This document shows positions 6,760 through 60,748 of a stretch of DNA of 64,000 bases, piece after piece; position 1 is the stretch's first letter; the number at the start of each line of letters is the position of its first letter. Both the position numbers and the translations under genes were made by a program. Location of the stretch: NCBI GenBank assembly GCA_964413155.1, contig CAYPRT010000001.1:102702-166701 (forward strand), given 5' to 3'. A model generated the notes under the pieces. That model was not told the origin of the DNA, searched no databases, and saw only the letters and a program-made list of their open reading frames with translations. The stretch comes from an uncultured Hyphomicrobiales bacterium. GTDB lineage: Bacteria > Bacteroidota > Ignavibacteria > Kapaibacteriales > UBA2268.

Positions 6760-7863
6760 ATGGCTAAAATAAATAAAAAACGAATACTTGTTGGAATGTC
6801 GGGTGGAGTTGACTCGTCCACGGCCGCTGCAATTTTAAAATCACAAGGATATGAAGTCGTTGGAATTACTGTAACTTCAATAAAGATAACCGACGAGTGC
6901 AAAGTTCAAAACAGCACTTCTGGTTGTTGTAATTATCAATCTATAATTGACGCAAGCGATGTATGTGAATATCTTGGAATTGAGCACCATATTGTCGACC
7001 TTTCCGAAATTTTTCGAGAGAAAATAATCAGCAATTTTATTGACGAATATTTGAAAGGAAGAACGCCGAATCCTTGTTCCCTGTGTAATCCATTAATCAA
7101 ATGGGGCGAAATTTTAAAAAAAGCCGATGAATACGATTGTTATTATTATGCAACAGGACATTACGCCAAAATCGCCCAAGATAACTCTTCTGGAAGATTT
7201 TACATCAAAATGGCTAAAGATAGAACAAAGGACCAATCCTACTTCCTTTGGGGATTAACCCAAGAGCAGCTGAAACGAACCATATTCCCCCTTGGAAACT
7301 ACCTAAAAACTGAAGTCCGAAAACTTGCAAAGGAATTTGGCTTAAAAATTTACAATAAGTTTGAAAGTCAAGAAATTTGTTTTGTTCCTTCGAACAATTA
7401 CCGAGATGTATTAGAAAAATATTCCCACGAAAAGCAAGTATTTTCCGAAGGCGATATTGTTTTTCGCGGAGTTGTTGTCGGGAAACATCGTGGTTATGTA
7501 AACTACACTATTGGTCAACGAAAAGGTTTAGGAATAAGCTACCATCAGCCTTTATACGTTAAAAGAATTATTCCAGATACAAACACAATTGAAGTGGACA
7601 TTGACGAAGGTTTGAAATCTTTTAAGTTACTTGCTGATAATGTCAATTTTATTAAGTATGATTATTTTGATGAAAATAAAGAATACTTAGTTAAAATTCG
7701 ATACAAAGACAACGGAGAGAAAGCTCACTGCCGTATTCTTGACAATGAGAACCTGGAAGTAATTTTCCTAAACCCGCGAAGGGCAATTACGCCAGGACAA
7801 TCCGTAGTAATTTACGAAAATGAAGACCTTGTGGCAGGAGGTATAATATATGCAAGCGAGTAG
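6760..7863 (+). CDS. mnmA: tRNA-specific 2-thiouridylase MnmA
   Basis: PP-loop SGGVDSS, conserved MnmA core, typical length of 367 aa. Confidence 0.9.
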   Translation: MAKINKKRILVGMSGGVDSSTAAAILKSQGYEVVGITVTSIKITDECKVQNSTSGCCNYQSIIDASDVCEYLGIEHHIVDLSEIFREKIISNFIDEYLKGRTPNPCSLCNPLIKWGEILKKADEYDCYYYATGHYAKIAQDNSSGRFYIKMAKDRTKDQSYFLWGLTQEQLKRTIFPLGNYLKTEVRKLAKEFGLKIYNKFESQEICFVPSNNYRDVLEKYSHEKQVFSEGDIVFRGVVVGKHRGYVNYTIGQRKGLGISYHQPLYVKRIIPDTNTIEVDIDEGLKSFKLLADNVNFIKYDYFDENKEYLVKIRYKDNGEKAHCRILDNENLEVIFLNPRRAITPGQSVVIYENEDLVAGGIIYASE

Positions 7864-8755
7864 AAAACCCATCCTTTTCTTTTTGTTATTCATTTTGTTT
7901 TCTTCTGGACAAAATATTCTGGCAGACCAAAAACAAGAAAGCGTAAGTCAACCCGATACCTCTATCTATTGTTTCAAATATTCTTTCGATGCTGGCGATA
8001 CTCTTTTGTATTTGGTGCATTCATATGATAGTATCATTATCGATTATGGTTTACCTTTGCTTAAAATAAGGAACGAAATTTATAGAATTATTTGCGAAAA
8101 AGTAACTAAATACAATTCTTTCATTCTATCAATTGAATTAATTGAGTTTCAAGGAAGAGATTTTCAGGATACAAATTTTGTTGAATACAATGAATCTAAT
8201 TGGAAAAACCGAAAAATCAAGATAGAAATTGATTCTTTGGGAAATAGGTTTAATTTTTGGGTGGACGACTCGACGAAAAGCGGTAGAACACCCGGTGGAC
8301 CATTTCAACCTCATCTTTTCTTTTCCATCAATGAAACCTGTAAAAAAAAGAACGAAACTTGGTTAGTCCGAACCACAGAAGACCTTGTCGAAAATGGAAT
8401 ACCAATTCCACGACTTATCCACTCGATGCTTTTTAAAATGAATGGAGAAGTCGACACACTTGGCGAAAAAGTTGTACGATGCGAATTCGTTCGCACAGGG
8501 CAAGGTTCTCTTCAGCTTCAACAAATGCAAAACAATATGAAGGTAACTACAATCATCAATGCTTATGGTTTTCTTGACATTTCGAAAGAAAAAGGAATAC
8601 CTTTGCACCTATTTACAACCGAGGAACAAAAACTAAGCTTTAAAACAGAAAATACTCAAAGCACCGGAAGACATTATATCCATACAAACTATACTTTGAT
8701 TGAATATCGCAAAGCGCAAAGTTTGATTAAAAAACCAAAAGAAAAAAAGAAGTAA
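7850..8755 (+). CDS. Hypothetical secreted protein (signal peptide), 301 aa
   Basis: N-terminal signal MQASRKPILFFLLFILFSSGQNILA. ATG overlaps the mnmA stop by 14 nt. No recognisable motif. Confidence 0.4.
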   Translation: MQASRKPILFFLLFILFSSGQNILADQKQESVSQPDTSIYCFKYSFDAGDTLLYLVHSYDSIIIDYGLPLLKIRNEIYRIICEKVTKYNSFILSIELIEFQGRDFQDTNFVEYNESNWKNRKIKIEIDSLGNRFNFWVDDSTKSGRTPGGPFQPHLFFSINETCKKKNETWLVRTTEDLVENGIPIPRLIHSMLFKMNGEVDTLGEKVVRCEFVRTGQGSLQLQQMQNNMKVTTIINAYGFLDISKEKGIPLHLFTTEEQKLSFKTENTQSTGRHYIHTNYTLIEYRKAQSLIKKPKEKKK

Positions 8756-13433: not shown

Positions 13434-13482
13434 AAAATAAATTTTGTATGTATAAAATTTGTTTCTTCAAAATGGAGGTTTT

Positions 13483-16020
13483 ATGAAAATCAGAAACTTC
13501 TTGTGGGGAGCGCTCATTTTGGTTCTTTCATTATCTCCACTTTTCGCGCAAAACCAAGCACCAAATCCACCGCGACAACTCATTGGTACCTCCTCTCCAA
13601 ATCCCGATGGAACTTACAATGTAAAGCTTAGTTGGTTCATCGACAAAGCAAATTATTCAAATTATGTATTCCCCGATGGATTTAATATCTACCAAACAAT
13701 TCTCCAAGGTGGCGTTGTCAAAAATACCCTCGTTGGTTCTATTAATTCTAATCCAAATCAATTTAGCTACGAATATATAATTACCAATCTTGCTCAAGGA
13801 ACCTATCAGTTTTATGTGACTTCCTTCAAAGGGAATGTACAAAGTCAACCGAGCAACAAAATTACTCTACAACTTTATAACGAGAATAAGTACTATATCA
13901 AAATTATTTCGCAACCTCCACTATATGCTTATGTTGGGAAAAAATATGTTTATCAAATCAAAGTCACAACAAATTTAGATTGCCCGATCGATGTTTTTGA
14001 ATTCGAAGGGGATGTTCCAGAAGGAATGACAATTTCTCCCACTGGCTTAATTGAATGGACACCCCAACAAACCGGTATTTACAAAATCGAAGTAAAAGCA
14101 GGGACTTCGTGCAAAGTAAATGTTGAAGCCGCAAGGCAAACTTTCAAAATACAAGTTCTTGATAGCGTACCACCTAACGAAAAACCTTATGTAAGAATCA
14201 TTAGTCAGCCACAAAATTTTGCAACTATTGGAATTCCTTGGGTATACAAAGTTATTACAGAAACAAATGTTTATTGTGTTGTTCGATACAAAATCTTAGA
14301 AACAGATATCCAAGATTTAGAAATTAATGAAGAAACAGGTTTAATCTCGTGGACACCCCAAAAACCTGGTGTTTACAATTTCACGGTTATGGCATATCTC
14401 CTTTGCGATGACAATGTTTATGATAAACAAAAAGTTACAATCAATGTTGAAGAAAACAATGCAAACAATAATTGTGTACATTTAGTTGGATACGCTTCGT
14501 TCGAGGATGGAACTCTTGTGCCCAACGGAGTTGCAATTGCTTGGAAATTAGATTCGGACAATAATCAAACAAACTCTAATTTTAAAACAACAATTCAGCA
14601 AGGATTCTTCCAATTCTTCTTGCCACCTGGGGTTTATGTTTTTGAGTTCAACGGGGAATTATTTGACCACCAATTTTATGATAAAGCAACTCGATTGTTG
14701 GACGCAACCAAAATTTCCCTTGATTGCGAAAAAACCCCAGAATTCACGTTAAAAGTAGTTTTAACAAAGAAAAATCCACCAGAACTTTACAAAGTTTCTG
14801 GCTATGTCTTGGATGCTAACGATAATTCGCCTGTGCCAGCAATGGTTGAATTTATCCCCGTTGAAATGCTATTCAAGCCCGGTAAATTGAATAACTACGG
14901 AGTTGTTCCTCGTTTTGTAACAAAGACCGATAATGAAGGGAAATATGAAATTGAATTACCTAACAACTTTGCATACATTGCCCATGCAATTCCACTTGAC
15001 AAAACTGCCTATGCCGACCAGTATTACCAACTTTCCTCTTCACCATATAATGCAGATATTATAGTGCTTGTAGAAGATTTAGAAGGTATCGACTTCCTGT
15101 TGAAACCACAAGAAAAATTCAATAATGGATTCGCTGGTATTGTTATCGATAAAGACAGAAATCCAATCGAATCGCGAGTAATCGCAATACTGGTAAAACC
15201 AAATGAGCCGGCAAATTACGCTCCAAATTCAACCATTAGAGTTGTTGAAACAGACCAACAAGGACATTTCTTATTCCAAAATTTGCCACCGGGAGAATAT
15301 GTGCTGCTTTCTATTCCAAAAGATCCCAAGTATGTTCCGGGGTATTATAAAATGAATGACTTTGCAACATTAAAATGGCGCGAAGCTACGCGAGTTGCTG
15401 TCGATAAAGTTATGATTCAAATAATTTATGAAATCAAACACAAAGAACTAAGTTCTTTGAAAGGCTTGGTTACATTCTGTGGCTATGTTGGCGAAGCTTC
15501 GGGAATTATGAAATCATTCGATAAACCACAAAGTTATCCGCCAATAGGAGAGTCACTGGTTTTGGCTTTGGATATTCAAGGAAATGTCATAAATTATACG
15601 TTGGCGGACAAAGATGGCTATTTCATTCTAGAAGAACTTCCTGCTGGTATGTTGAAACTATTGGTTTCGAAAGTAGGCTACAAAGACCTTGAAACCACAG
15701 TCGATGCTAATTTTGAAAATAACTCTTATTTATACTTTGAGTTTAATTTGGAAAAGGAAGTTTCTTCGGTCGAAATCGATAATAATTTGAACCTAATCGT
15801 ATCGCAAACAGAAGATTTCTTGCTACTCGAAACCACATCCGAAACAGAAATTCAAGCAGTTAAATTATTTGACCTTTATGGAAAATTAGTCGTATCTAAC
15901 GAAAACATTCAAGCTACATCAACTCGAATTCCAATTAATTCTATTTCGAGCGGCATTTACTTCATCAGTGTCGCAACAAACAAAGGCTTGTATTCTGGAA
16001 AAGTTTCAATCGTTCGTTGA
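13483..16020 (+). CDS. Large cell-surface protein: signal peptide, two tandem He_PIG-type putative Ig domains, CarboxypepD_reg-like repeats, T9SS C-terminal sorting domain
   Basis: ATG at 13483 with GGAGG SD 5 nt upstream; the track start at 13459 is an extension. Two ~90-aa repeats (IISQPPLYAYVGKKYVYQIKV...GLIEWTPQQTGIYKIEV and IISQPQNFATIGIPWVYKVI...GLISWTPQKPGVYNFTV). C-terminus ...SGIYFISVATNKGLYSGKVSIVR is typical of a T9SS CTD. Confidence 0.6.
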   Translation: MKIRNFLWGALILVLSLSPLFAQNQAPNPPRQLIGTSSPNPDGTYNVKLSWFIDKANYSNYVFPDGFNIYQTILQGGVVKNTLVGSINSNPNQFSYEYIITNLAQGTYQFYVTSFKGNVQSQPSNKITLQLYNENKYYIKIISQPPLYAYVGKKYVYQIKVTTNLDCPIDVFEFEGDVPEGMTISPTGLIEWTPQQTGIYKIEVKAGTSCKVNVEAARQTFKIQVLDSVPPNEKPYVRIISQPQNFATIGIPWVYKVITETNVYCVVRYKILETDIQDLEINEETGLISWTPQKPGVYNFTVMAYLLCDDNVYDKQKVTINVEENNANNNCVHLVGYASFEDGTLVPNGVAIAWKLDSDNNQTNSNFKTTIQQGFFQFFLPPGVYVFEFNGELFDHQFYDKATRLLDATKISLDCEKTPEFTLKVVLTKKNPPELYKVSGYVLDANDNSPVPAMVEFIPVEMLFKPGKLNNYGVVPRFVTKTDNEGKYEIELPNNFAYIAHAIPLDKTAYADQYYQLSSSPYNADIIVLVEDLEGIDFLLKPQEKFNNGFAGIVIDKDRNPIESRVIAILVKPNEPANYAPNSTIRVVETDQQGHFLFQNLPPGEYVLLSIPKDPKYVPGYYKMNDFATLKWREATRVAVDKVMIQIIYEIKHKELSSLKGLVTFCGYVGEASGIMKSFDKPQSYPPIGESLVLALDIQGNVINYTLADKDGYFILEELPAGMLKLLVSKVGYKDLETTVDANFENNSYLYFEFNLEKEVSSVEIDNNLNLIVSQTEDFLLLETTSETEIQAVKLFDLYGKLVVSNENIQATSTRIPINSISSGIYFISVATNKGLYSGKVSIVR

Positions 16021-16042: not shown

Positions 16043-16076
16043 AGAGGCTATCCAATTTGGATAGCCTCTTTTTTTA
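16043..16076 (+). terminator. Rho-independent terminator
   Basis: AGAGGCTATCC-AATT-GGATAGCCTCT hairpin followed by TTTTTTT. Confidence 0.6.
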
Positions 16077-16177: not shown

Positions 16178-16963
16178 TTATTTTTTATCCAAATCCAGTT
16201 TCAAAGCCTTATCCACTAGAATTTCAAGATTTTGCAAAGGAGCATTTTTGGGGGATTGTTGTTTTTTGGCTTTTTTAGATTGAGTTGTTTTATCTATGGA
16301 AGAGTAAAATTCAAAACTAAAGGAATAGTTTCTTCGAGGGACTTTCAGTTCGGTTAAAAGATTTTGGATTGTTTCAGCTCTTTTTTCAGAAATAGCCTTT
16401 GCTTGATCTTCGGGGGTCACTAAAACTTTTGTTTTCTTTTTTCCCTTAACAATAGTGTGAGTTGTTTTTTTAAATAAGCTTTGATTAGTTCGAATGACAA
16501 TTATAAAAGATAATTTTGGATTGTTTTTCGAAAGAGTAGCTAAAAAATTCAATGCATTTTTCCCATCGTTGGTCAAATCGTATGAAGATTCTTCGAAGGC
16601 AACCGCTTTTCGAATTGAAACACCCGGTTCAAGTGGCACTAGAAAAAGATTCGCTTCTTTTTCGTAATAGCTTTGTTGCGATTGTATCTCGAGAGCAACA
16701 GGGTCAATACACAGCCAATTTTCAGCGAAAACAACATAATTACCAAATTTATTTAAAGGAATATGAAAGGAACCATCATTGCTGGACTTTACTGGAATCT
16801 TTTTCCCGTTTTCGTCGATTAAAAAGAATTTAATCTCCAATGGACTCCGAGTTTGGTAATTATATATTTTACCTTTCAATAAAACAGTAGAATTTATACC
16901 ACCACCTTGCCCAAGCAAGGTAAGTGGTATAAGAATAAACAAAAATAATACTCTAAACTTCAT
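16178..16963 (-). CDS. Hypothetical secreted protein with Lys-rich C-terminal tail
   Basis: Signal peptide MKFRVLFLFILIPLTLLGQ. N-terminal region looks like a CarboxypepD_reg-like beta-sandwich. No catalytic motif. Confidence 0.4.
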   Translation of the reverse strand: MKFRVLFLFILIPLTLLGQGGGINSTVLLKGKIYNYQTRSPLEIKFFLIDENGKKIPVKSSNDGSFHIPLNKFGNYVVFAENWLCIDPVALEIQSQQSYYEKEANLFLVPLEPGVSIRKAVAFEESSYDLTNDGKNALNFLATLSKNNPKLSFIIVIRTNQSLFKKTTHTIVKGKKKTKVLVTPEDQAKAISEKRAETIQNLLTELKVPRRNYSFSFEFYSSIDKTTQSKKAKKQQSPKNAPLQNLEILVDKALKLDLDKK

Positions 16964-17007
16964 TGTAAATTAGTAAAAAAGAAAAAACCCGAATTGGGGA
17001 ATAGAAA

Positions 17008-17103
17008 CTAACGATTTTTCTTTTTATGTCTATTCTTGCGAAGTCTTTTTTTTCGCTTATGGGTATTCATTTTATGGCGTTTTCTCTTTCTACCACACGG
17101 CAT
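17008..17103 (-). CDS. Unannotated 31-aa highly basic peptide, possible ribosomal protein bS22-like (below the ORF-track length cut-off)
   Basis: ATG at 17103 with AGAGGT SD; TAG stop at 17008-17010. Product MPCGRKRKRHKMNTHKRKKRLRKNRHKKKNR is about 65% Lys/Arg/His. Composition and spacing resemble the ~33-aa bS22 family (K/R-rich with a central H). Confidence 0.35.
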   Translation of the reverse strand: MPCGRKRKRHKMNTHKRKKRLRKNRHKKKNR

Positions 17104-17121
17104 AATTACCTCTGCAATTAG

Positions 17122-17433
17122 TTATTTATCATTTTGATTGTTTAAATTATCGTTTACTTTCTTCAAGAATTCAGGTGATGGCTTGAAAACGGGAACAACT
17201 CTTTTTTCCAGAGGAACTTCTTCGCCAGTTTTGGGATTTCTGGCAATTCTTGGCTTCCGCTCTTTCGATTTGAAAACACCAAAACCACGAAGTTCAATTC
17301 TTTTACCACTGGAAATTGCATCCATTATTGTTGTAAAAACTCCTTCGACTACGGCTTTCGTTTCGATTTTTGTTAATCCTGTTCGCTTTGCAATTTCATC
17401 AACAATATCCGCTTTTGTTACATTAATTCCCAT
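17122..17433 (-). CDS. hup: DNA-binding protein HU/IHF family
   Basis: MGINVTKADIVDEIAKRTGLTK...RIELRGFGVFKSKERKPRIARNPKTGEEV with the conserved arm RNPKTGE; short C-terminal extension. Confidence 0.85.
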   Translation of the reverse strand: MGINVTKADIVDEIAKRTGLTKIETKAVVEGVFTTIMDAISSGKRIELRGFGVFKSKERKPRIARNPKTGEEVPLEKRVVPVFKPSPEFLKKVNDNLNNQNDK

Positions 17434-17636
17434 AGTAACTCAAATATTTGTTATTAAACATTTTAGAAAAGCAAAATTAAAAAACTTGAACTAAATAAAA
17501 AAATCAAATTTATTAAATGTTCTTCGAAACTGATAAAATTATAATACTTACAAAGGTTTCGAGATTCTCAATTAAAATTCAATCTCATTATAAAAACAAT
17601 TTAATATATGCAGTAGATTTTTAAAAAACCAAAATC

Positions 17637-18740
17637 TTATTTCTTTTCCAAAACCAATTCATCTATTATTTTGCCACGCAAATCATATACCGTTAGCTTT
17701 ATTGAATCGGCGGTAACATCCATAATCCCGTAGTGATAGTCCTTAACCGATTTTTGCACAAATTCGGAGCTTTTCGGTTCATACAATGGAGCGCCTCCTC
17801 CAGCGAAAACTATATGATAAATTCCATTTACAAAACTTCTTTGATAGAAATGGTTATGACCGTTCAAAACTAAATCGACGTGATATTTTTCTAAAATTTT
17901 CGATGTTAGTTCTTGCATATTTTTGTTACCATTGTGTCCGCCCCAAGAATAAGCAGGAATATGAAATACAACAATTTTCCATTTTTTATTTGTATTTTCT
18001 AAATCTCTTTCGGCGAAATTCCATTGCGGAGAATTTGGTTTAACATCTGTTTCTGTATTCAAAATCAAAAAGTGTGCATCTCCATAGTCAAAAGAATAGT
18101 AATATTCATCATTTGATGAGGAAAACGGTGCCTGAAGAAATACTTTAGTTAATCCAGTTTTAGCTTCATGATTTCCTAATGAATTGAAGAAAGGTACACT
18201 GGAAATCAAGTCCTGTTCCTCTGGAGTGAAAAACTCTTTCTTCCATTCGAAATATTTCCCCGAATAGCACAGGTCGCCAGTATAAATTGAAAAGTTGGGT
18301 TTATGTTGAGCAATTTTTTTTGATTTTTTTGAATGAATTTCAGGATTGGAACGATTATCCCCTGTTATTGCTACTCGAAAAGAATTTCCAGCCGGAACTG
18401 CTGTTCTGAATTCAAAGATCAAAGAAGTATCGCCAGAATGAATAGCACGATATTTGTAAGTTTTGTTTGGCAAAAGGTTTGTCAGTTCAATTCTATGTAC
18501 AAAGGTTTTCGAGCGTCTGTCTTCGGCTATCCGAATAAACTTTGTCGAAGACAAATTTTCTAAATCTTGCTCGCCAAATTGAACAAAGACAGGCTCGCGA
18601 GTATCTGTTTCAGCCATTACAATGATTGAATTCTCCGTAACAGCTTGAAGATATGGTTTCATTAATAATTTGGCTCGAAGAGGAATAAAAGAAATAGTAA
18701 AAGCATGAAGGATTAGTATAAAAATTGCAACTTTCTTCAT
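17637..18740 (-). CDS. Calcineurin-like metallophosphoesterase (purple acid phosphatase-like) with N-terminal FN3-like domain
   Basis: Motifs GDLCY, GNHE, NGHNH (GD/GNH(E/D)/GH signature). Signal peptide from MKKVAIFILILHAF; start set at 18740, though the upstream ATG at 18785 is possible. Confidence 0.7.
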   Translation of the reverse strand: MKKVAIFILILHAFTISFIPLRAKLLMKPYLQAVTENSIIVMAETDTREPVFVQFGEQDLENLSSTKFIRIAEDRRSKTFVHRIELTNLLPNKTYKYRAIHSGDTSLIFEFRTAVPAGNSFRVAITGDNRSNPEIHSKKSKKIAQHKPNFSIYTGDLCYSGKYFEWKKEFFTPEEQDLISSVPFFNSLGNHEAKTGLTKVFLQAPFSSSNDEYYYSFDYGDAHFLILNTETDVKPNSPQWNFAERDLENTNKKWKIVVFHIPAYSWGGHNGNKNMQELTSKILEKYHVDLVLNGHNHFYQRSFVNGIYHIVFAGGGAPLYEPKSSEFVQKSVKDYHYGIMDVTADSIKLTVYDLRGKIIDELVLEKK

Positions 18741-18802
18741 AGTTTTGCTTTTGGAAAAAAAAGTATAATCGAAATTGATGTTCATATATTTTTGGAGTCG
18801 AA

Positions 18803-20458
18803 ATGAAAAAAATTATTGTTGGAATGCTAATTCTTTCGTTTTTCCTTTCCTTCTGCACAAATCAGAAAAAAGAGATGAATCCAACAACCGATATCAGTAA
18901 AATTAGAAAGAGGATTAAAGAATTTGCACCAATTGAAATTAAACCAGATTTAAGCAATCTGACAGAAAGTGAAAAAAAAGTTGTCCAATTATTAATCGAA
19001 GCTGGAAAAATCGCAGATGAAATTTTTTGGAAACAAACTTCTCCCGATGCTATATCTTTCCGCGACTCTCTAATGAAGCTAAACACACCAGAAGCAAAAG
19101 ACATTTTAACCTTGGTGAATATTTTTTACGGACCATACGATTTAATCGAAAATGGAAAACGATTCGTTGGCAAAGGTTTCGATAAAAAACCTGAAGGTGC
19201 AAATTTCTATCCAATTGATTTAACTAAAGAAGAATTCGAGAAGTATATCCAACAACATCCAGAACAAAAGGAAGAACTTGAAAGCCAATACACTATCGTT
19301 GTACGCGATGGAAATAAGCTTAAAGCAATACCATATCATCAAGCATATCCCGAAACGGAAAAATTAGCGAATTTACTTGAAGAGGCAGCACGTTATTGCC
19401 AAAATGAAAGTTTCAAAAAGTATTTACTTTTGCGAGCAAGAGCAATTCGCACAGACGACTACTTTGAAAGCGATTTAGCTTGGATGGACATTAAAGATTC
19501 CAAAATCGATGTTGTAATCGGTCCAATTGAGAACTACGAAGACGAGCTATTTAATTACAAAACTGCTTACGAAGCAATTGTTATGATAAAGGACGAGGAA
19601 GGAACTCGCGAGCTTCAAATGTTTCAAAATAACTTGGATTATTTTGAGCAGAATTTACCATACGACAAAAAATACATTCGAAAAACTGCTGGAAGTGGAA
19701 ACATTTTGCAAATTATGAATGTTGCTTATTTCGGTGGAGATTGCCAAGCAGGAACTAAAACTATTGCTAATTCTTTACCGAACGACCCACGTGTCCACGA
19801 AATAAAAGGTGGGAAAAAGTCAATGTTTAAAAACATTATGGAAGCAAAGTTCGACAAAATCCTTGTCCCAATTGCAGAAAAGATTCTTGAACCTAACTTA
19901 ATGAAATTAGTTGATAAAAAAGCCTTTACAAGTTTTGTTACTCTCCACGAAGTATCCCATACTTTGGGAAGAGGGTTTGTTTATGGAAACGACTCATTAC
20001 CTGTTCGCAAAGCATTGAAGGAACGATATTCAGCCATCGAAGAATGCAAAGCCGATGTTTTAGGGATTTATAACTTTAAACATTTGTTTAAAAAAGGGTT
20101 GGTGGATTCTCTGCAGATTGAAAAAGCAAAAGTGACATATATTGCTGGTTTGTTCCGCTCCATCCGTTTCGGAGCCAGTGAAGCCCACGGAAAGGCAAAC
20201 TTAATTCAATTGAATTTCCTTGAAGAAAATGGAATTATTAAATACGAAAAAAATAAGATAAAAATCGATACCGAAAGATTCTTCGACGTAATTCAGAATT
20301 TAGCCAATATGATTTTAACAATACAAGCAGAAGGAAATTATTCGAAAGCAGGCGAAGTATTAGAAAAATATGGAAAAATGAAACCCGAAACACAAACAAT
20401 TCTTTCCAATTTGAAAGACATCCCAAGAGATTTAAATATTTATTGGCTAAGCCCTTAA
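18803..20458 (+). CDS. Lipoprotein with HExxH zinc-metallopeptidase motif (possibly M49/DPP III-like hydrolase)
   Basis: Signal plus lipobox MKKIIVGMLILSFFLSFC. HEVSHTLG followed downstream by a conserved E (EECKADVLG). 551 aa. Confidence 0.45.
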   Translation: MKKIIVGMLILSFFLSFCTNQKKEMNPTTDISKIRKRIKEFAPIEIKPDLSNLTESEKKVVQLLIEAGKIADEIFWKQTSPDAISFRDSLMKLNTPEAKDILTLVNIFYGPYDLIENGKRFVGKGFDKKPEGANFYPIDLTKEEFEKYIQQHPEQKEELESQYTIVVRDGNKLKAIPYHQAYPETEKLANLLEEAARYCQNESFKKYLLLRARAIRTDDYFESDLAWMDIKDSKIDVVIGPIENYEDELFNYKTAYEAIVMIKDEEGTRELQMFQNNLDYFEQNLPYDKKYIRKTAGSGNILQIMNVAYFGGDCQAGTKTIANSLPNDPRVHEIKGGKKSMFKNIMEAKFDKILVPIAEKILEPNLMKLVDKKAFTSFVTLHEVSHTLGRGFVYGNDSLPVRKALKERYSAIEECKADVLGIYNFKHLFKKGLVDSLQIEKAKVTYIAGLFRSIRFGASEAHGKANLIQLNFLEENGIIKYEKNKIKIDTERFFDVIQNLANMILTIQAEGNYSKAGEVLEKYGKMKPETQTILSNLKDIPRDLNIYWLSP

Positions 20459-35875: not shown

Positions 35876-36433
35876 CTAATTTTCGTTCAAAGAATCGTAA
35901 AGTTCTTTGAGCTTTTTCCTGAGGTGAAGCACGGCGTAGCGTTTCCTTGCAAGAAGAGTATTTATGTTAACACCTGTTTGTTCCGACATTTCGCGGAAAG
36001 AGACGCCCTGAAATTCGTTTTTAATAAATACATCACGCTGTTCAGGAGGTAATTCAGCAAGGCCTTCCTGAACTCTTTCCCAAATAGTTTGGCGAAGCAA
36101 TTCCGTATCTGGGTCGGAAGTTTTGTCCGAAATGAAGCTTTCGAAAGTGTCCGATGGGTCATCCGAAGCGCTTGGTAATTGCATATCGGAAAATGTTTCG
36201 GCTCGTTTTTTGCGATATGAATCAATAATACGATTGCGTATAGCAGTAAAAACCCACGACGCAACGTTTTCAATTGGTTTTTGCATCTGCTGCGAAGCAG
36301 CAAGCACATTGGCAAAGACATCTTGTAAGATATCTTCTGCTTCTTCCTGGCTTCGCACCCTTTGCCTGATGAACCCAAGAAACTTCTTACGGTCGGTTCT
36401 AAATAACTGTTCGATTTGAGATGTAAAATCCAT
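35876..36433 (-). CDS. RNA polymerase sigma-70 factor, ECF subfamily (no adjacent anti-sigma gene)
   Basis: Region 2 (DILQDVFANVL) and region 4 (QGVSFREMSEQTGVNINTLLARKRYAVLHLRKKL). ATG 36433 with AAAGGAGGTAAG SD. Visibly higher GC than neighbouring genes. Confidence 0.8.
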   Translation of the reverse strand: MDFTSQIEQLFRTDRKKFLGFIRQRVRSQEEAEDILQDVFANVLAASQQMQKPIENVASWVFTAIRNRIIDSYRKKRAETFSDMQLPSASDDPSDTFESFISDKTSDPDTELLRQTIWERVQEGLAELPPEQRDVFIKNEFQGVSFREMSEQTGVNINTLLARKRYAVLHLRKKLKELYDSLNEN

Positions 36434-59125: not shown

Positions 59126-60748
59126 ATGGGAGCAAAAATAATCACATTCGATTTTGAAGCAAGAAATGCTTTAAAGCGAGGAGTCGATCAATTAACAAAT
59201 GCCGTAAAAGTTACCCTTGGTCCTAAAGGTCGTAATGTTATTATCGATAAAAAATTTGGAGCTCCAACAGTTACAAAGGATGGAGTAACTGTTGCCAAAG
59301 AAATCGAACTTGAAGACCCAGTCGAAAATATGGGTGCCCAGATGGTTCGAGAAGTTGCATCCAAGACAAGTGATGTAGCTGGCGATGGGACAACTACAGC
59401 AACGGTCCTTGCCCAAGCAATCTTTTCCGAAGGGTTGAAGAATGTTACTGCAGGGGCAAACCCAATGGATTTGAAGCGCGGAATTGATATGGCTGTTGAA
59501 GCTGTAACAAAAGAATTGAAAAATATCAGCAAGGAAGTCGAAGGGAAAAAACAAATTGCAAACGTTGGAGCAATTTCCGCAAACAACGACAAAGCAATCG
59601 GAGAACTTATTGCCGATGCTATGGAAAAAGTTGGTAAAGACGGTGTTATCACCGTTGAAGAAGCCAAAGGAACCGAAACTTCAATGGAAGTTGTCGAAGG
59701 TATGCAGTTCGACCGCGGTTATCTTTCTCCATATTTTGTTACTGATGCCGAAACTATGGAGGCTGTGCTCGAAAATCCATACATTTTAATCCACGACAAA
59801 AAGATTTCTGCTGTTAAAGACATACTTCCTATTCTTGAGAAAATTTCACAATCAGGTCGTTCCTTGTTGATAATTGCCGAAGACGTCGAAGGCGAAGCAC
59901 TTGCAACCTTGGTTGTCAACAAATTGCGTGGAACACTGAAAGTCTGCGCCGTTAAAGCCCCGGGATTTGGCGACCGACGAAAAGCAATGCTCGAAGACAT
60001 TGCAATTCTAACTAATGGTACTGTTATTAGCGAAGAAAAAGGTTTTAAGCTCGAAAATGCAACTCTCGCATACCTTGGTACCGCAAAGAAAGTTGTCGTC
60101 GATAAGGACAACACAACCATAGTCGAAGGAAGCGGAAAACCCGAAGAAATCAAAAAGCGAATTAATGAAATCAAAATCCAAATTGAAAAGACAACAAGCG
60201 AATACGACCGCGAAAAACTTCAAGAACGACTTGCAAAACTCAGCGGTGGTGTTGCAGTTTTGAAAATCGGCGCTGCAACCGAAGTCGAAATGAAAGAAAA
60301 GAAAGCTCGTGTTGAAGATGCTTTGCACGCTACCCGAGCTGCAGTCGAAGAAGGTATCGTTCCCGGCGGTGGCGTAGCCTATTTGCGATGCCTCCATGCG
60401 CTCGACAGTTTGAAGCCGGAAAATGAAGACCAAAAAATTGGGATCGAAATTGTCCGCCGTGCCCTTGAAGAACCCGCACGACAAATTGTCGCAAATGCTG
60501 GACTTGAACCATCCGTAATCGTAAATAAGATAAAAGAAGGCAATGGTTCGTTCGGTTTCAATGCTCAAACCGAACAATTCGAAGACTTGTTCGAAAGTGG
60601 AGTTATCGACCCAACCAAAGTTGCTCGCGTTGCACTCGAAAATGCAGCTTCGGTTGCTGGATTGTTGCTAACAACAGAGTGCACAATCGTTGAAAAACCC
60701 GAAAAGAAGGAAACTCCACCAATGCCTCGTGGATACGACGAATATTAA
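59126..60748 (+). CDS. groEL: Chaperonin GroEL
   Basis: [31 protein letters not shown]-terminal GGM-like tail. 540 aa. Confidence 0.97.

What the first reader, a model, noticed from the sequence alone, without database searches (positions are those of the whole stretch)
17008..17103. Unannotated 31-codon ORF encoding an ultra-basic peptide (possible bS22-type ribosomal protein) next to hup
A clean ATG...TAG ORF with an SD-like AGAGGT lies on the minus strand between hup and the upstream secreted-protein gene. It is below the ORF-track length cut-off and is missed by default gene callers. The product MPCGRKRKRHKMNTHKRKKRLRKNRHKKKNR is two-thirds K/R/H. Its spacing (KR-KR-H/M-x-KKK/HKR-KK-RL-RK) recalls the ~33-aa bacterial ribosomal protein bS22 (DUF1713/COX24-like) reported for Actinobacteria and Bacteroidota ribosomes. 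If correct, it is a real, conserved micro-protein gene.
Basis: partly seen in the sequence, partly recalled or inferred. Interest (0 to 1): 0.5.

Follow-up and report, generated by a model that had tools for sequence, protein, structure and literature searches.

The report
Unannotated ribosomal micro-protein bS22 gene
The 31-codon reading frame after the hup gene is a real gene for the tiny, very basic ribosomal protein bS22, which is already known from solved ribosome structures but is routinely missed by gene finders and curated family models.

Summary

The peptide aligns end to end with three bS22 chains modelled in solved ribosomes. These are P. gingivalis 9I5V (E 2e-8), F. johnsoniae 7JIL (6.5e-8) and Borrelia burgdorferi 8FMW (2.8e-7).

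A degenerate DNA pattern covering only codons 1-20 found at least 120 genomes. They belong to Bacteroidota, Ignavibacteria, Rhodothermales, Chlorobiota, Latescibacterota and Cloacimonadota. In all 120 the frame continues LRKNRHKKK through the unconstrained codons 21-29 and stops after 29-35 codons. Across codons 21-29 there are 627 synonymous and 25 non-synonymous codon differences. Column entropy at codon positions 1/2/3 is 0.36/0.11/1.18 bits, against 1.7-1.9 bits in the flanks.

Its proposed test is not sound. Pfam PF08213 and NCBIfam NF047430 score mycobacterial bS22 well but fail on this peptide and on the structure-verified Flavobacterium and Borrelia proteins.

The function given here is inferred from homologues: a helix between 16S h44 and h45 at the subunit interface.

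This is a new, unannotated member of a known family. Interest is low to moderate.

The parts
17008..17103 (-). Coding sequence of bS22 (FCB/spirochaete type), 31 codons plus TAG.
   Evidence: ORF confirmed. Full-length matches to PDB chains 9i5v_10, 7jil_5 and 8fmw_V at E 2e-8 to 3e-7. The frame and the peptide are conserved in 120/120 loci found by the pattern. Codon-position entropy is 0.36/0.11/1.18 bits and synonymous to non-synonymous codon differences are 627:25 in the unconstrained codons 21-29. AlphaFold2 predicts a helix over residues 5-29 with pLDDT 84.6.
17108..17113 (-). Shine-Dalgarno-like AGAGGT, 4 nt upstream of the ATG.
   Evidence: Read directly from the sequence. GGAG/GAGG-type motifs sit at about -13..-7 in 23 of 24 Ignavibacteria-like and other non-Bacteroidota orthologous loci. 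In this window only 9 of 47 long ORFs carry such a 4-mer, against an 8% background. Its function is inferred, not shown.
17122..17433 (-). HU/IHF-family DNA-binding protein gene immediately upstream, probably co-transcribed with the micro-ORF.
   Evidence: Pfam PF00216 at 2.4e-29. NCBIfam IHF-alpha and IHF-beta scores fall below their cut-offs. The intergenic gap is 18 nt with no terminator-like site. An HU homologue lies upstream on the same strand in 84 of 92 related loci that have enough upstream DNA. Co-transcription is inferred.
16975..16999 (-). Weak CCC/GGG hairpin followed by a T-rich tract after the stop codon; a possible but unproven terminator.
   Evidence: Sequence. It does not meet the terminator scan criteria. 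The fold is only -4 kcal/mol with z = -0.3 against shuffles.

Best explanation
Window 17008..17103 (minus strand) is the gene for ribosomal protein bS22 of the type found in Bacteroidota and spirochaetes.

Shown here:
- The ORF is intact.
- It is about 80-90% identical over its full length to bS22 chains modelled in three solved bacterial ribosomes.
- It is under strong purifying selection as a protein across the Fibrobacteres-Chlorobi-Bacteroidetes (FCB) group.

Inferred from those homologues:
- The 31-aa peptide forms a single basic alpha-helix.
- The helix inserts between helices h44 and h45 of 16S rRNA next to the decoding centre. The Borrelia structure also shows contacts with h2 and h27.
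- Its lysine-rich C-terminus reaches 23S rRNA (H68/H70) and adds an intersubunit bridge.
- It probably tunes the conformation of h44. In mycobacteria, loss of the positional counterpart increases aminoglycoside sensitivity without a growth defect.

Inferred from local anatomy:
- The gene is most likely transcribed together with the upstream HU/IHF-family gene, 18 nt away in an arrangement conserved in relatives.
- It is most likely translated from its own Shine-Dalgarno-like AGAGGT.

The host is probably an Ignavibacteria-like member of the FCB group.
For: ORF and composition.

Matches to solved ribosome chains (phmmer against PDB): 9i5v_10 at 2.1e-8, 7jil_5 at 6.5e-8 and 8fmw_V at 2.8e-7, each covering residues 1-28/29. 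A family profile scores the same three chains at 4e-15 to 1.5e-13.

Conservation: a DNA pattern on codons 1-20 found at least 120 loci. All keep the frame, continue LRKNRHKKK and stop at codon 29-35. Entropy at codon positions 1/2/3 is 0.357/0.109/1.177 bits in codons 21-29, against 1.70 and 1.88 bits in the flanks. There are 627 synonymous and 25 non-synonymous codon differences in codons 21-29.

Translation signal: SD-like motifs occur in 23/24 non-Bacteroidota orthologous loci.

Gene linkage: HU lies upstream on the same strand in 84/92 loci.

Fold: predicted helix over residues 5-29, pLDDT 84.6.

Position and function of homologues: PMC7797042, PMC12123416, PMC10618245, PMC13000457 and bioRxiv 10.1101/2023.03.31.535098.

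Host: the closest HU homologues are in L104 (72%) and the Ignavibacteria loci L003 (64%) and L116 (61%). A T9SS sorting domain is present in a neighbouring gene.
Against: There is no expression, proteomic or structural evidence from this organism.

Curated models (Pfam PF08213, NCBIfam NF047430) give no hit, although controls show they also miss verified members.

No promoter or convincing terminator was identified, so the operon structure is only inferred.

The loci were selected by a pattern on codons 1-20, so only codons 21 onward give an unbiased conservation test.

The function is extrapolated. Even in F. johnsoniae and mycobacteria the physiological role of bS22 is unresolved. In F. johnsoniae it dissociates from isolated 30S subunits (PMC13000457).
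Confidence: 0.95

Rival explanations
1. A chance ORF in an A-rich intergenic spacer. AAA/AAG/AGA-rich DNA between hup and the next gene happens to read as a Lys/Arg-rich peptide.
For: Short ORFs are abundant here: 72 ORFs of at least 20 aa in 5 kb. The region is about 31-35% GC. The antisense frames over the same bases are also open.
Against: Database-wide matches to ribosome-structure chains at E 2e-8 to 3e-7. The frame, length and sequence are conserved in 120/120 loci from several phyla, while the flanking DNA is unconserved at 1.7-1.9 bits. Synonymous to non-synonymous codon differences are 627:25.
Confidence: 0.01
2. A conserved non-coding RNA or regulatory element, such as a hup 3' UTR or a leader for the downstream gene, whose conservation mimics a coding region.
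For: It sits in a short intergenic region. No curated protein model hits it.
Against: Variation is concentrated at third codon positions, with a 3-nt periodicity. No Rfam family matches there. There is no stable fold nearby. The downstream gene differs between loci: OmpA-like here, tRNA-Thr or other genes elsewhere. A leader role for one particular gene is therefore excluded.
Confidence: 0.01
3. A real, translated basic micro-protein that is not ribosomal in this lineage, for example a nucleoid-associated or nucleic-acid-binding peptide acting together with the neighbouring HU protein.
For: Linkage to an HU/IHF-family gene is conserved in 84/92 loci. The extreme basic charge would let it bind any nucleic acid. 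In F. johnsoniae, bS22 is lost from isolated 30S subunits (PMC13000457).
Against: About 80-90% identity to proteins seen directly in the h44/h45 pocket of ribosomes from two phyla (PMC7797042, PMC12123416, PMC10618245). Such near-invariance fits a conserved rRNA pocket better than general DNA binding. In several loci tRNA genes follow directly on the same strand, which is a translation-apparatus context.
Confidence: 0.03

Closest known systems
bS22 of Flavobacterium johnsoniae (Fjoh_1533; PDB 7JIL chain 5) and Porphyromonas gingivalis (AAQ66340.1; PDB 9I5V)
   Same: Same length class (30 against 31 aa). Same MPxG start and same THKRKKR...NRHKKK core. Roughly 80-85% identity over residues 1-29. 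Very basic. Predicted as a single helix, matching the described helix plus C-terminal lysines (PMC13000457). Originally annotated as hypothetical or not at all.
   Different: Cys3 instead of Ser/Asn, Asn13 instead of Ala, and a 2-residue C-terminal NR extension. The host is probably Ignavibacteria-like rather than Bacteroidia. An SD-like motif precedes the gene here, which is rare in the Bacteroidota loci.
bS22 of Borrelia burgdorferi (bb0822; PDB 8FMW chain V)
   Same: MPCGRKRK N-terminus. Full-length match at E 2.8e-7. Also unannotated in its genome and found only from the cryo-EM density (PMC10618245).
   Different: Borrelia uses a GUG start and has LKK instead of RHK at positions 9-11. It belongs to a different phylum (Spirochaetota).
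Actinobacterial bS22 (M. smegmatis MSMEG_0945, 33 aa; Pfam PF08213 COX24_C; NCBIfam NF047430) and mitochondrial mS38/Cox24
   Same: Reported to occupy the same h44/h45 pocket with the same helical shape (PMC7797042, PMC10618245). Similar length and charge. Hydrophobic residues M12 and L21 align in an ungapped register.
   Different: No detectable sequence homology with these tools. BLASTP finds nothing. The FCB profile does not hit it in PDB at E up to 10. Its HMMs do not score the window peptide. The shuffle test gives P of only 0.014-0.087. Whether the two types are homologous or convergent is open; PMC12123416 raises the possibility of convergence with mS38 and eL41.
Eukaryotic eL41
   Same: A tiny, very basic single helix in the equivalent small-subunit pocket, forming an intersubunit bridge. 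Described as a structural analogue in PMC10618245 and PMC12123416.
   Different: Shorter (24 aa helix, no bend) and eukaryotic. No sequence comparison was run here.
bTHX (Thermus 30S peptide; my own recollection is that NCBIfam carries a THX model)
   Same: A small basic bacterial 30S peptide that annotation often misses.
   Different: The NCBIfam scan of the window peptide returned no family at all, at E up to 10. By general knowledge it has a different sequence family and a different ribosomal location.

Membership tests
bS22, FCB/spirochaete type (Fjoh_1533 / PG AAQ66340.1 / bb0822) | Full-length sequence similarity to a chain modelled in the bS22 position of a solved ribosome. | tested here: met
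   phmmer against PDB: 9i5v_10 at 2.1e-8, 7jil_5 at 6.5e-8, 8fmw_V at 2.8e-7, residues 1-28/29 aligned without gaps. The family profile scores 4e-15 to 1.5e-13.
bS22, FCB/spirochaete type (Fjoh_1533 / PG AAQ66340.1 / bb0822) | Length of about 28-31 aa and extreme basicity (Borrelia has 61% K+R). | tested here: met
   31 aa; K+R 18/31 (58%); K+R+H 21/31 (68%).
bS22, FCB/spirochaete type (Fjoh_1533 / PG AAQ66340.1 / bb0822) | Reading frame conserved in relatives under purifying selection. | tested here: met
   120/120 loci keep the frame and the peptide. Codons 21-29 have entropy 0.36/0.11/1.18 bits at codon positions 1/2/3 and 627 synonymous against 25 non-synonymous codon differences.
bS22, FCB/spirochaete type (Fjoh_1533 / PG AAQ66340.1 / bb0822) | Single alpha-helix followed by a basic tail. 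| tested here: met
   AlphaFold2 from the single sequence predicts a helix over residues 5-29, mean pLDDT 84.6. This is a prediction for the free peptide only.
bS22, FCB/spirochaete type (Fjoh_1533 / PG AAQ66340.1 / bb0822) | Physical presence in the 30S subunit between h44 and h45, contacting 23S H68/H70. | not testable with these tools
   This needs cryo-EM or ribosome proteomics of this organism. It is known for homologues (PMC7797042, PMC12123416, PMC10618245).
Pfam PF08213 (COX24_C / DUF1713) and NCBIfam NF047430 (ribo_bS22) | HMM score at or above the curated cut-off (23 and 34 bits). | tested here: not met
   No hit even at E up to 10. In the controls, mycobacterial bS22 scores 46.2 and 62.6 bits. 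Verified F. johnsoniae and Borrelia bS22 score nothing, and P. gingivalis scores 11.7 bits. The models do not cover this subtype.
Pfam PF08213 (COX24_C / DUF1713) and NCBIfam NF047430 (ribo_bS22) | Pairwise sequence similarity to actinobacterial bS22. | tested here: inconclusive
   BLASTP gives no alignment. The ungapped alignment has 9/31 identities, with shuffle P 0.014 at offset 0 and 0.087 over offsets.
bTHX | Match to a curated NCBIfam model for THX. | tested here: not met
   The NCBIfam scan returned no family at all for the peptide. HMMER's composition filters may hide weak hits.

The most novel reading that the evidence does not exclude
The FCB/spirochaete-type bS22 may be a family separate from actinobacterial bS22 and mitochondrial mS38. 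It would be either very divergent or convergent on the same rRNA pocket. On this reading it is ancestral to the whole FCB group, because it is near-invariant in Bacteroidota, Ignavibacteria, Rhodothermales, Chlorobiota, Latescibacterota and Cloacimonadota. Its gene is persistently linked to an HU/IHF nucleoid-protein gene, usually through a membrane-anchored TPR protein gene, and in some lineages to tRNA genes. That linkage hints at co-regulation of nucleoid and ribosome components that nobody has described.
Probability: 0.2. Interest if true: 0.45.

Novelty: new member of a known kind. Interest (0 to 1): 0.25.

Why it matters
The main value is practical. A bona fide ribosomal protein gene is missing from the annotation of this genome. 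It is probably missing from many other FCB-group genomes as well, for three reasons.

- It is only 29-31 codons long.
- The two curated models that carry the bS22 name (Pfam PF08213, NCBIfam NF047430) do not recognise this subtype.
- In a library of 1.84 billion protein representatives, the family shows up only as mis-extended gene calls.

A dedicated model built from the peptides recovered here would fix this.

There is also a biological point. The search extends a protein so far shown in Bacteroidota and Borrelia ribosomes (its counterpart in actinobacterial ribosomes shows no detectable sequence similarity) to Ignavibacteria, Rhodothermales, Chlorobiota, Latescibacterota and Cloacimonadota. 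It also shows a conserved link to an HU/IHF gene. It does not change what is known about how bS22 works.

Tried and rejected
I replaced them with a degenerate DNA pattern scan.
The single-peptide run returned only mis-extended gene calls. That is informative about annotation but gives no taxonomy.
- Pfam and NCBIfam scans of the peptide gave nothing. Controls showed this to be a model-coverage problem, not evidence against the gene.
- I tried to connect the peptide to actinobacterial bS22 by BLASTP, by a profile search of PDB and by a composition-controlled shuffle test. None gave a significant link.
- The sigma-70 promoter and intrinsic terminator scans found nothing convincing for this gene. 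The post-stop hairpin is no better than shuffled sequence.
- A Bacteroidetes-type TAnnTTTG match (TAATTTTG, 17479..17472, minus strand) upstream of hup was seen by eye. In 30% GC DNA such a match is expected by chance, so I did not use it as evidence.
- A literature search for bS22 together with Ignavibacteria, Chlorobi and related names found no paper that mentions both.
- I looked for the TPR gene that separates HU from bS22 in most relatives. The window has only a generic multi-TPR ORF about 6 kb away (23.4-24.4 kb). I did not treat it as the orthologue.
- I did not use the metagenome scan, because the genome scan already gave enough.

Full report
**Observation.**
The minus strand of window 17008..17103 holds an ATG-to-TAG ORF of 31 codons. 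It encodes MPCGRKRKRHKMNTHKRKKRLRKNRHKKKNR. K+R+H make up 21 of 31 residues.

The ATG is the first start codon after the in-frame TAA of the preceding gene, 18 nt upstream. That gene (17122..17433, minus strand) is an HU/IHF-family DNA-binding protein. It scores 2.4e-29 against Pfam PF00216, and its NCBIfam IHF scores fall below their cut-offs.

AGAGGT lies at 17113..17108, 4 nt before the ATG. Forty-four nt after the stop begins an OmpA-like protein gene with a signal-peptide-like N-terminus (16178..16963, minus strand).

An ORF of this size means nothing on its own, because 72 ORFs of at least 20 aa overlap the surrounding 5 kb.

**Identity.**
A phmmer search of all PDB chains returned exactly three distinct sequences, each aligned end to end:
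- P. gingivalis 9I5V chain 10, E = 2.1e-8
- F. johnsoniae 7JIL chain 5, E = 6.5e-8
- B. burgdorferi 8FMW chain V, E = 2.8e-7

All three are the roughly 30-aa protein modelled as bS22 in cryo-EM maps:
- In F. johnsoniae, Fjoh_1533 lies between h44 and h45 and touches H70 (PMC7797042).
- In P. gingivalis, AAQ66340.1 had been annotated as hypothetical (PMC12123416).
- In Borrelia, bb0822 was unannotated, uses a GUG start, and is a candidate essential gene (PMC10618245).

**Conservation.**
The protein-based locus tools refuse peptides this short. I therefore scanned one genome per GTDB species with a degenerate DNA pattern that encodes only codons 1-20.

They come from Chitinophagales, Cytophagales, Saprospiraceae, some Flavobacteriales, Rhodothermales, Ignavibacteria, Chlorobiota, Latescibacterota and Cloacimonadota.

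In all 120 loci the frame stays open and continues L-R-K-N-R-H-K-K-K through codons 21-29, which the pattern did not constrain. It ends after 29-35 codons.

| Measure | Value |
|---|---|
| Column entropy in codons 21-29, codon positions 1 / 2 / 3 | 0.357 / 0.109 / 1.177 bits |
| Column entropy, 45 nt upstream / 45 nt downstream | 1.70 / 1.88 bits |
| Codon differences from the window in codons 21-29 | 627 synonymous, 25 non-synonymous |

It excludes both a chance ORF and a non-coding element. No Rfam family matches the region either.

**The proposed HMM test fails for an instructive reason.**
Pfam and NCBIfam give no hit for the peptide even at E up to 10.

Control scans explain why. I confirmed the mycobacterial sequence against PDB first.

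| Query | Pfam PF08213 (cut-off 23 bits) | NCBIfam NF047430 ribo_bS22 (cut-off 34 bits) |
|---|---|---|
| Mycobacterial bS22 | 46.2 bits | 62.6 bits |
| F. johnsoniae bS22 (structure-verified) | no hit | no hit |
| B. burgdorferi bS22 (structure-verified) | no hit | no hit |
| P. gingivalis bS22 | 11.7 bits | no hit |
| Window peptide | no hit | no hit |

No curated model covers this subtype, so 'no HMM hit' is not a valid refutation.

In the other direction, a profile of the FCB-type peptides does not reach actinobacterial bS22 in PDB, and BLASTP finds nothing. A composition-preserving shuffle test of the ungapped alignment (9/31 identities) gives P = 0.014 at offset 0 and 0.087 over offsets.

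The tie between the two bS22 types therefore rests on their shared ribosomal position as reported in the literature. It does not rest on any sequence similarity I could show.

**Annotation status.**
- The exact peptide is absent from a collection of 15 billion proteins.
- No gene call is on record for it.
- A Logan contig with identical DNA has hup called but not this ORF.
- phmmer against 1.84 billion cluster representatives found 222 proteins at E up to 1e-3, all 34-152 aa long.
- The ones I inspected are mis-extended calls. Some have spurious N-terminal extensions. Others read through the stop into downstream DNA, and one runs into what I recognise as a sequencing-adapter translation.

A length floor in those collections may partly explain why the peptide itself is absent.

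**Expression signals.**
An SD-like GGAG/GAGG sits at about -13..-7 in 23 of 24 Ignavibacteria-like and other non-Bacteroidota loci. Over all loci the figure is only 29 of 121. This fits the SD-poor translation reported for Bacteroidia (PMC7797042).

In this window only 9 of 47 long ORFs have such a motif, against an 8% background. The bS22 gene therefore belongs to an SD-bearing minority.

No promoter was found. The hairpin after the stop is weak (-4 kcal/mol, z = -0.3) and fails the terminator scan. Co-transcription with hup is inferred from the 18-nt spacing and from synteny.

**Synteny.**
An HU homologue lies upstream on the same strand in 84 of 92 loci that have at least 1.7 kb of upstream DNA. 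The exceptions are mainly Rhodothermales.

In 87 loci the two genes are separated by 0.5-1.6 kb. In the loci I inspected, that gap holds a membrane-anchored TPR protein gene. In the window and six other loci, bS22 follows HU directly.

The closest HU homologues are in L104 (72%), then the Ignavibacteria loci L003 (64%) and L116 (61%). L104 is labelled Hyphomicrobiales but shares the uppS-HU-bS22 arrangement with L003.

A neighbouring gene in the window carries a T9SS sorting domain. Together these point to an Ignavibacteria-like FCB-group host, which is an inference.

**Mechanism (inferred from homologues).**
AlphaFold2 predicts a single helix over residues 5-29 with pLDDT 84.6. [quoted passage not shown]

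In solved ribosomes the helix sits between h44 and h45 near the decoding centre. Its C-terminus contacts 23S H68/H70 and adds an intersubunit bridge (PMC7797042, PMC10618245, PMC12123416).

In M. smegmatis the positional counterpart is non-essential, and its loss raises aminoglycoside sensitivity through altered h44 geometry (bioRxiv 10.1101/2023.03.31.535098).

In F. johnsoniae, bS22 is absent from isolated 30S subunits but present in 70S initiation complexes. The authors suggest a possible interplay with IF3 (PMC13000457).

None of this was tested for the present organism.

**Verdict.**
This is a real, conserved micro-protein gene and a new, unannotated member of a known ribosomal protein family. 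I put confidence that it encodes bS22 at about 0.95.

Interest is low to moderate. The useful by-products are the demonstrated blind spot of the curated models, the wide FCB-group distribution and the HU linkage.

Noticed in passing
window 17008..17433 (-); loci L002-L121: The gene order HU/IHF-family gene, then membrane-anchored TPR protein gene (205-272 aa in the loci inspected), then bS22, all on one strand, is conserved. HU is upstream in 84 of 92 FCB-group loci that have enough upstream DNA. In the window and in L104, L079, L045, L059, L062 and L101 the TPR gene is absent and bS22 follows HU within 16-58 nt. The loci lacking HU are mainly Rhodothermales.
   Followed up: partly
L023 6338..6411, L092, L090, L057, L086, L070; L059 and L062: A tRNA gene lies a few tens of nt or fewer downstream of bS22 on the same strand. 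It is tRNA-Thr(CGU) in six Ignavibacteria/Melioribacter-type loci. In two Latescibacterota loci it is tRNA-Arg(CCG) followed by two tRNA-Pro. This is not the case in the window.
   Followed up: partly
curated libraries: Pfam PF08213 and NCBIfam NF047430 (ribo_bS22) recognise actinobacterial bS22. They miss the structure-verified bS22 of F. johnsoniae and B. burgdorferi, and P. gingivalis reaches only 11.7 bits. This is a systematic annotation gap for the FCB/spirochaete subtype.
   Followed up: yes
proteins P0002-P0151: In the 1.84-billion-protein representative library the family appears only as mis-called proteins of 34-152 aa. Some have spurious upstream extensions. Others read through the stop into downstream DNA, apparently including tRNA-gene DNA (P0011, P0082, judged by eye), and one (P0126) ends in ...CLLYTSDAADE, which I recognise as an adapter translation.
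   Followed up: partly
window, whole; e.g. 35876..36433 (-), 59126..60748 (+), 7850..8755 (+): Only about 19% of long ORFs have an SD-like 4-mer upstream, against an 8% background. A few genes carry very strong AAGGAGGT-type sites. This suggests partial use of Shine-Dalgarno sequences in this genome.
   Followed up: no
L104 (CAYXFU010000001.1): The closest relative of the window locus is deposited as 'uncultured Hyphomicrobiales bacterium'. It nevertheless shares the uppS-HU-bS22 arrangement and 72% HU identity with Ignavibacteria-type loci, so the MAG is probably mislabelled. The records labelled Streptomyces griseus (L024) and Citrobacter (L058, L119) also carry this FCB-type peptide, so those labels look doubtful as well.
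   Followed up: partly
window 13459..16020 (+), 16043..16069, 17637..18785 (-), 18803..20458 (+): Neighbouring features: an 853-aa surface protein with He_PIG, CarboxypepD_reg and a T9SS Por_Secre_tail sorting domain; a 12-bp GC-containing hairpin with T-runs on both sides between convergent genes, likely a bidirectional terminator; a secreted purple-acid-phosphatase-like metallophosphoesterase; and an M49-family peptidase.
   Followed up: no
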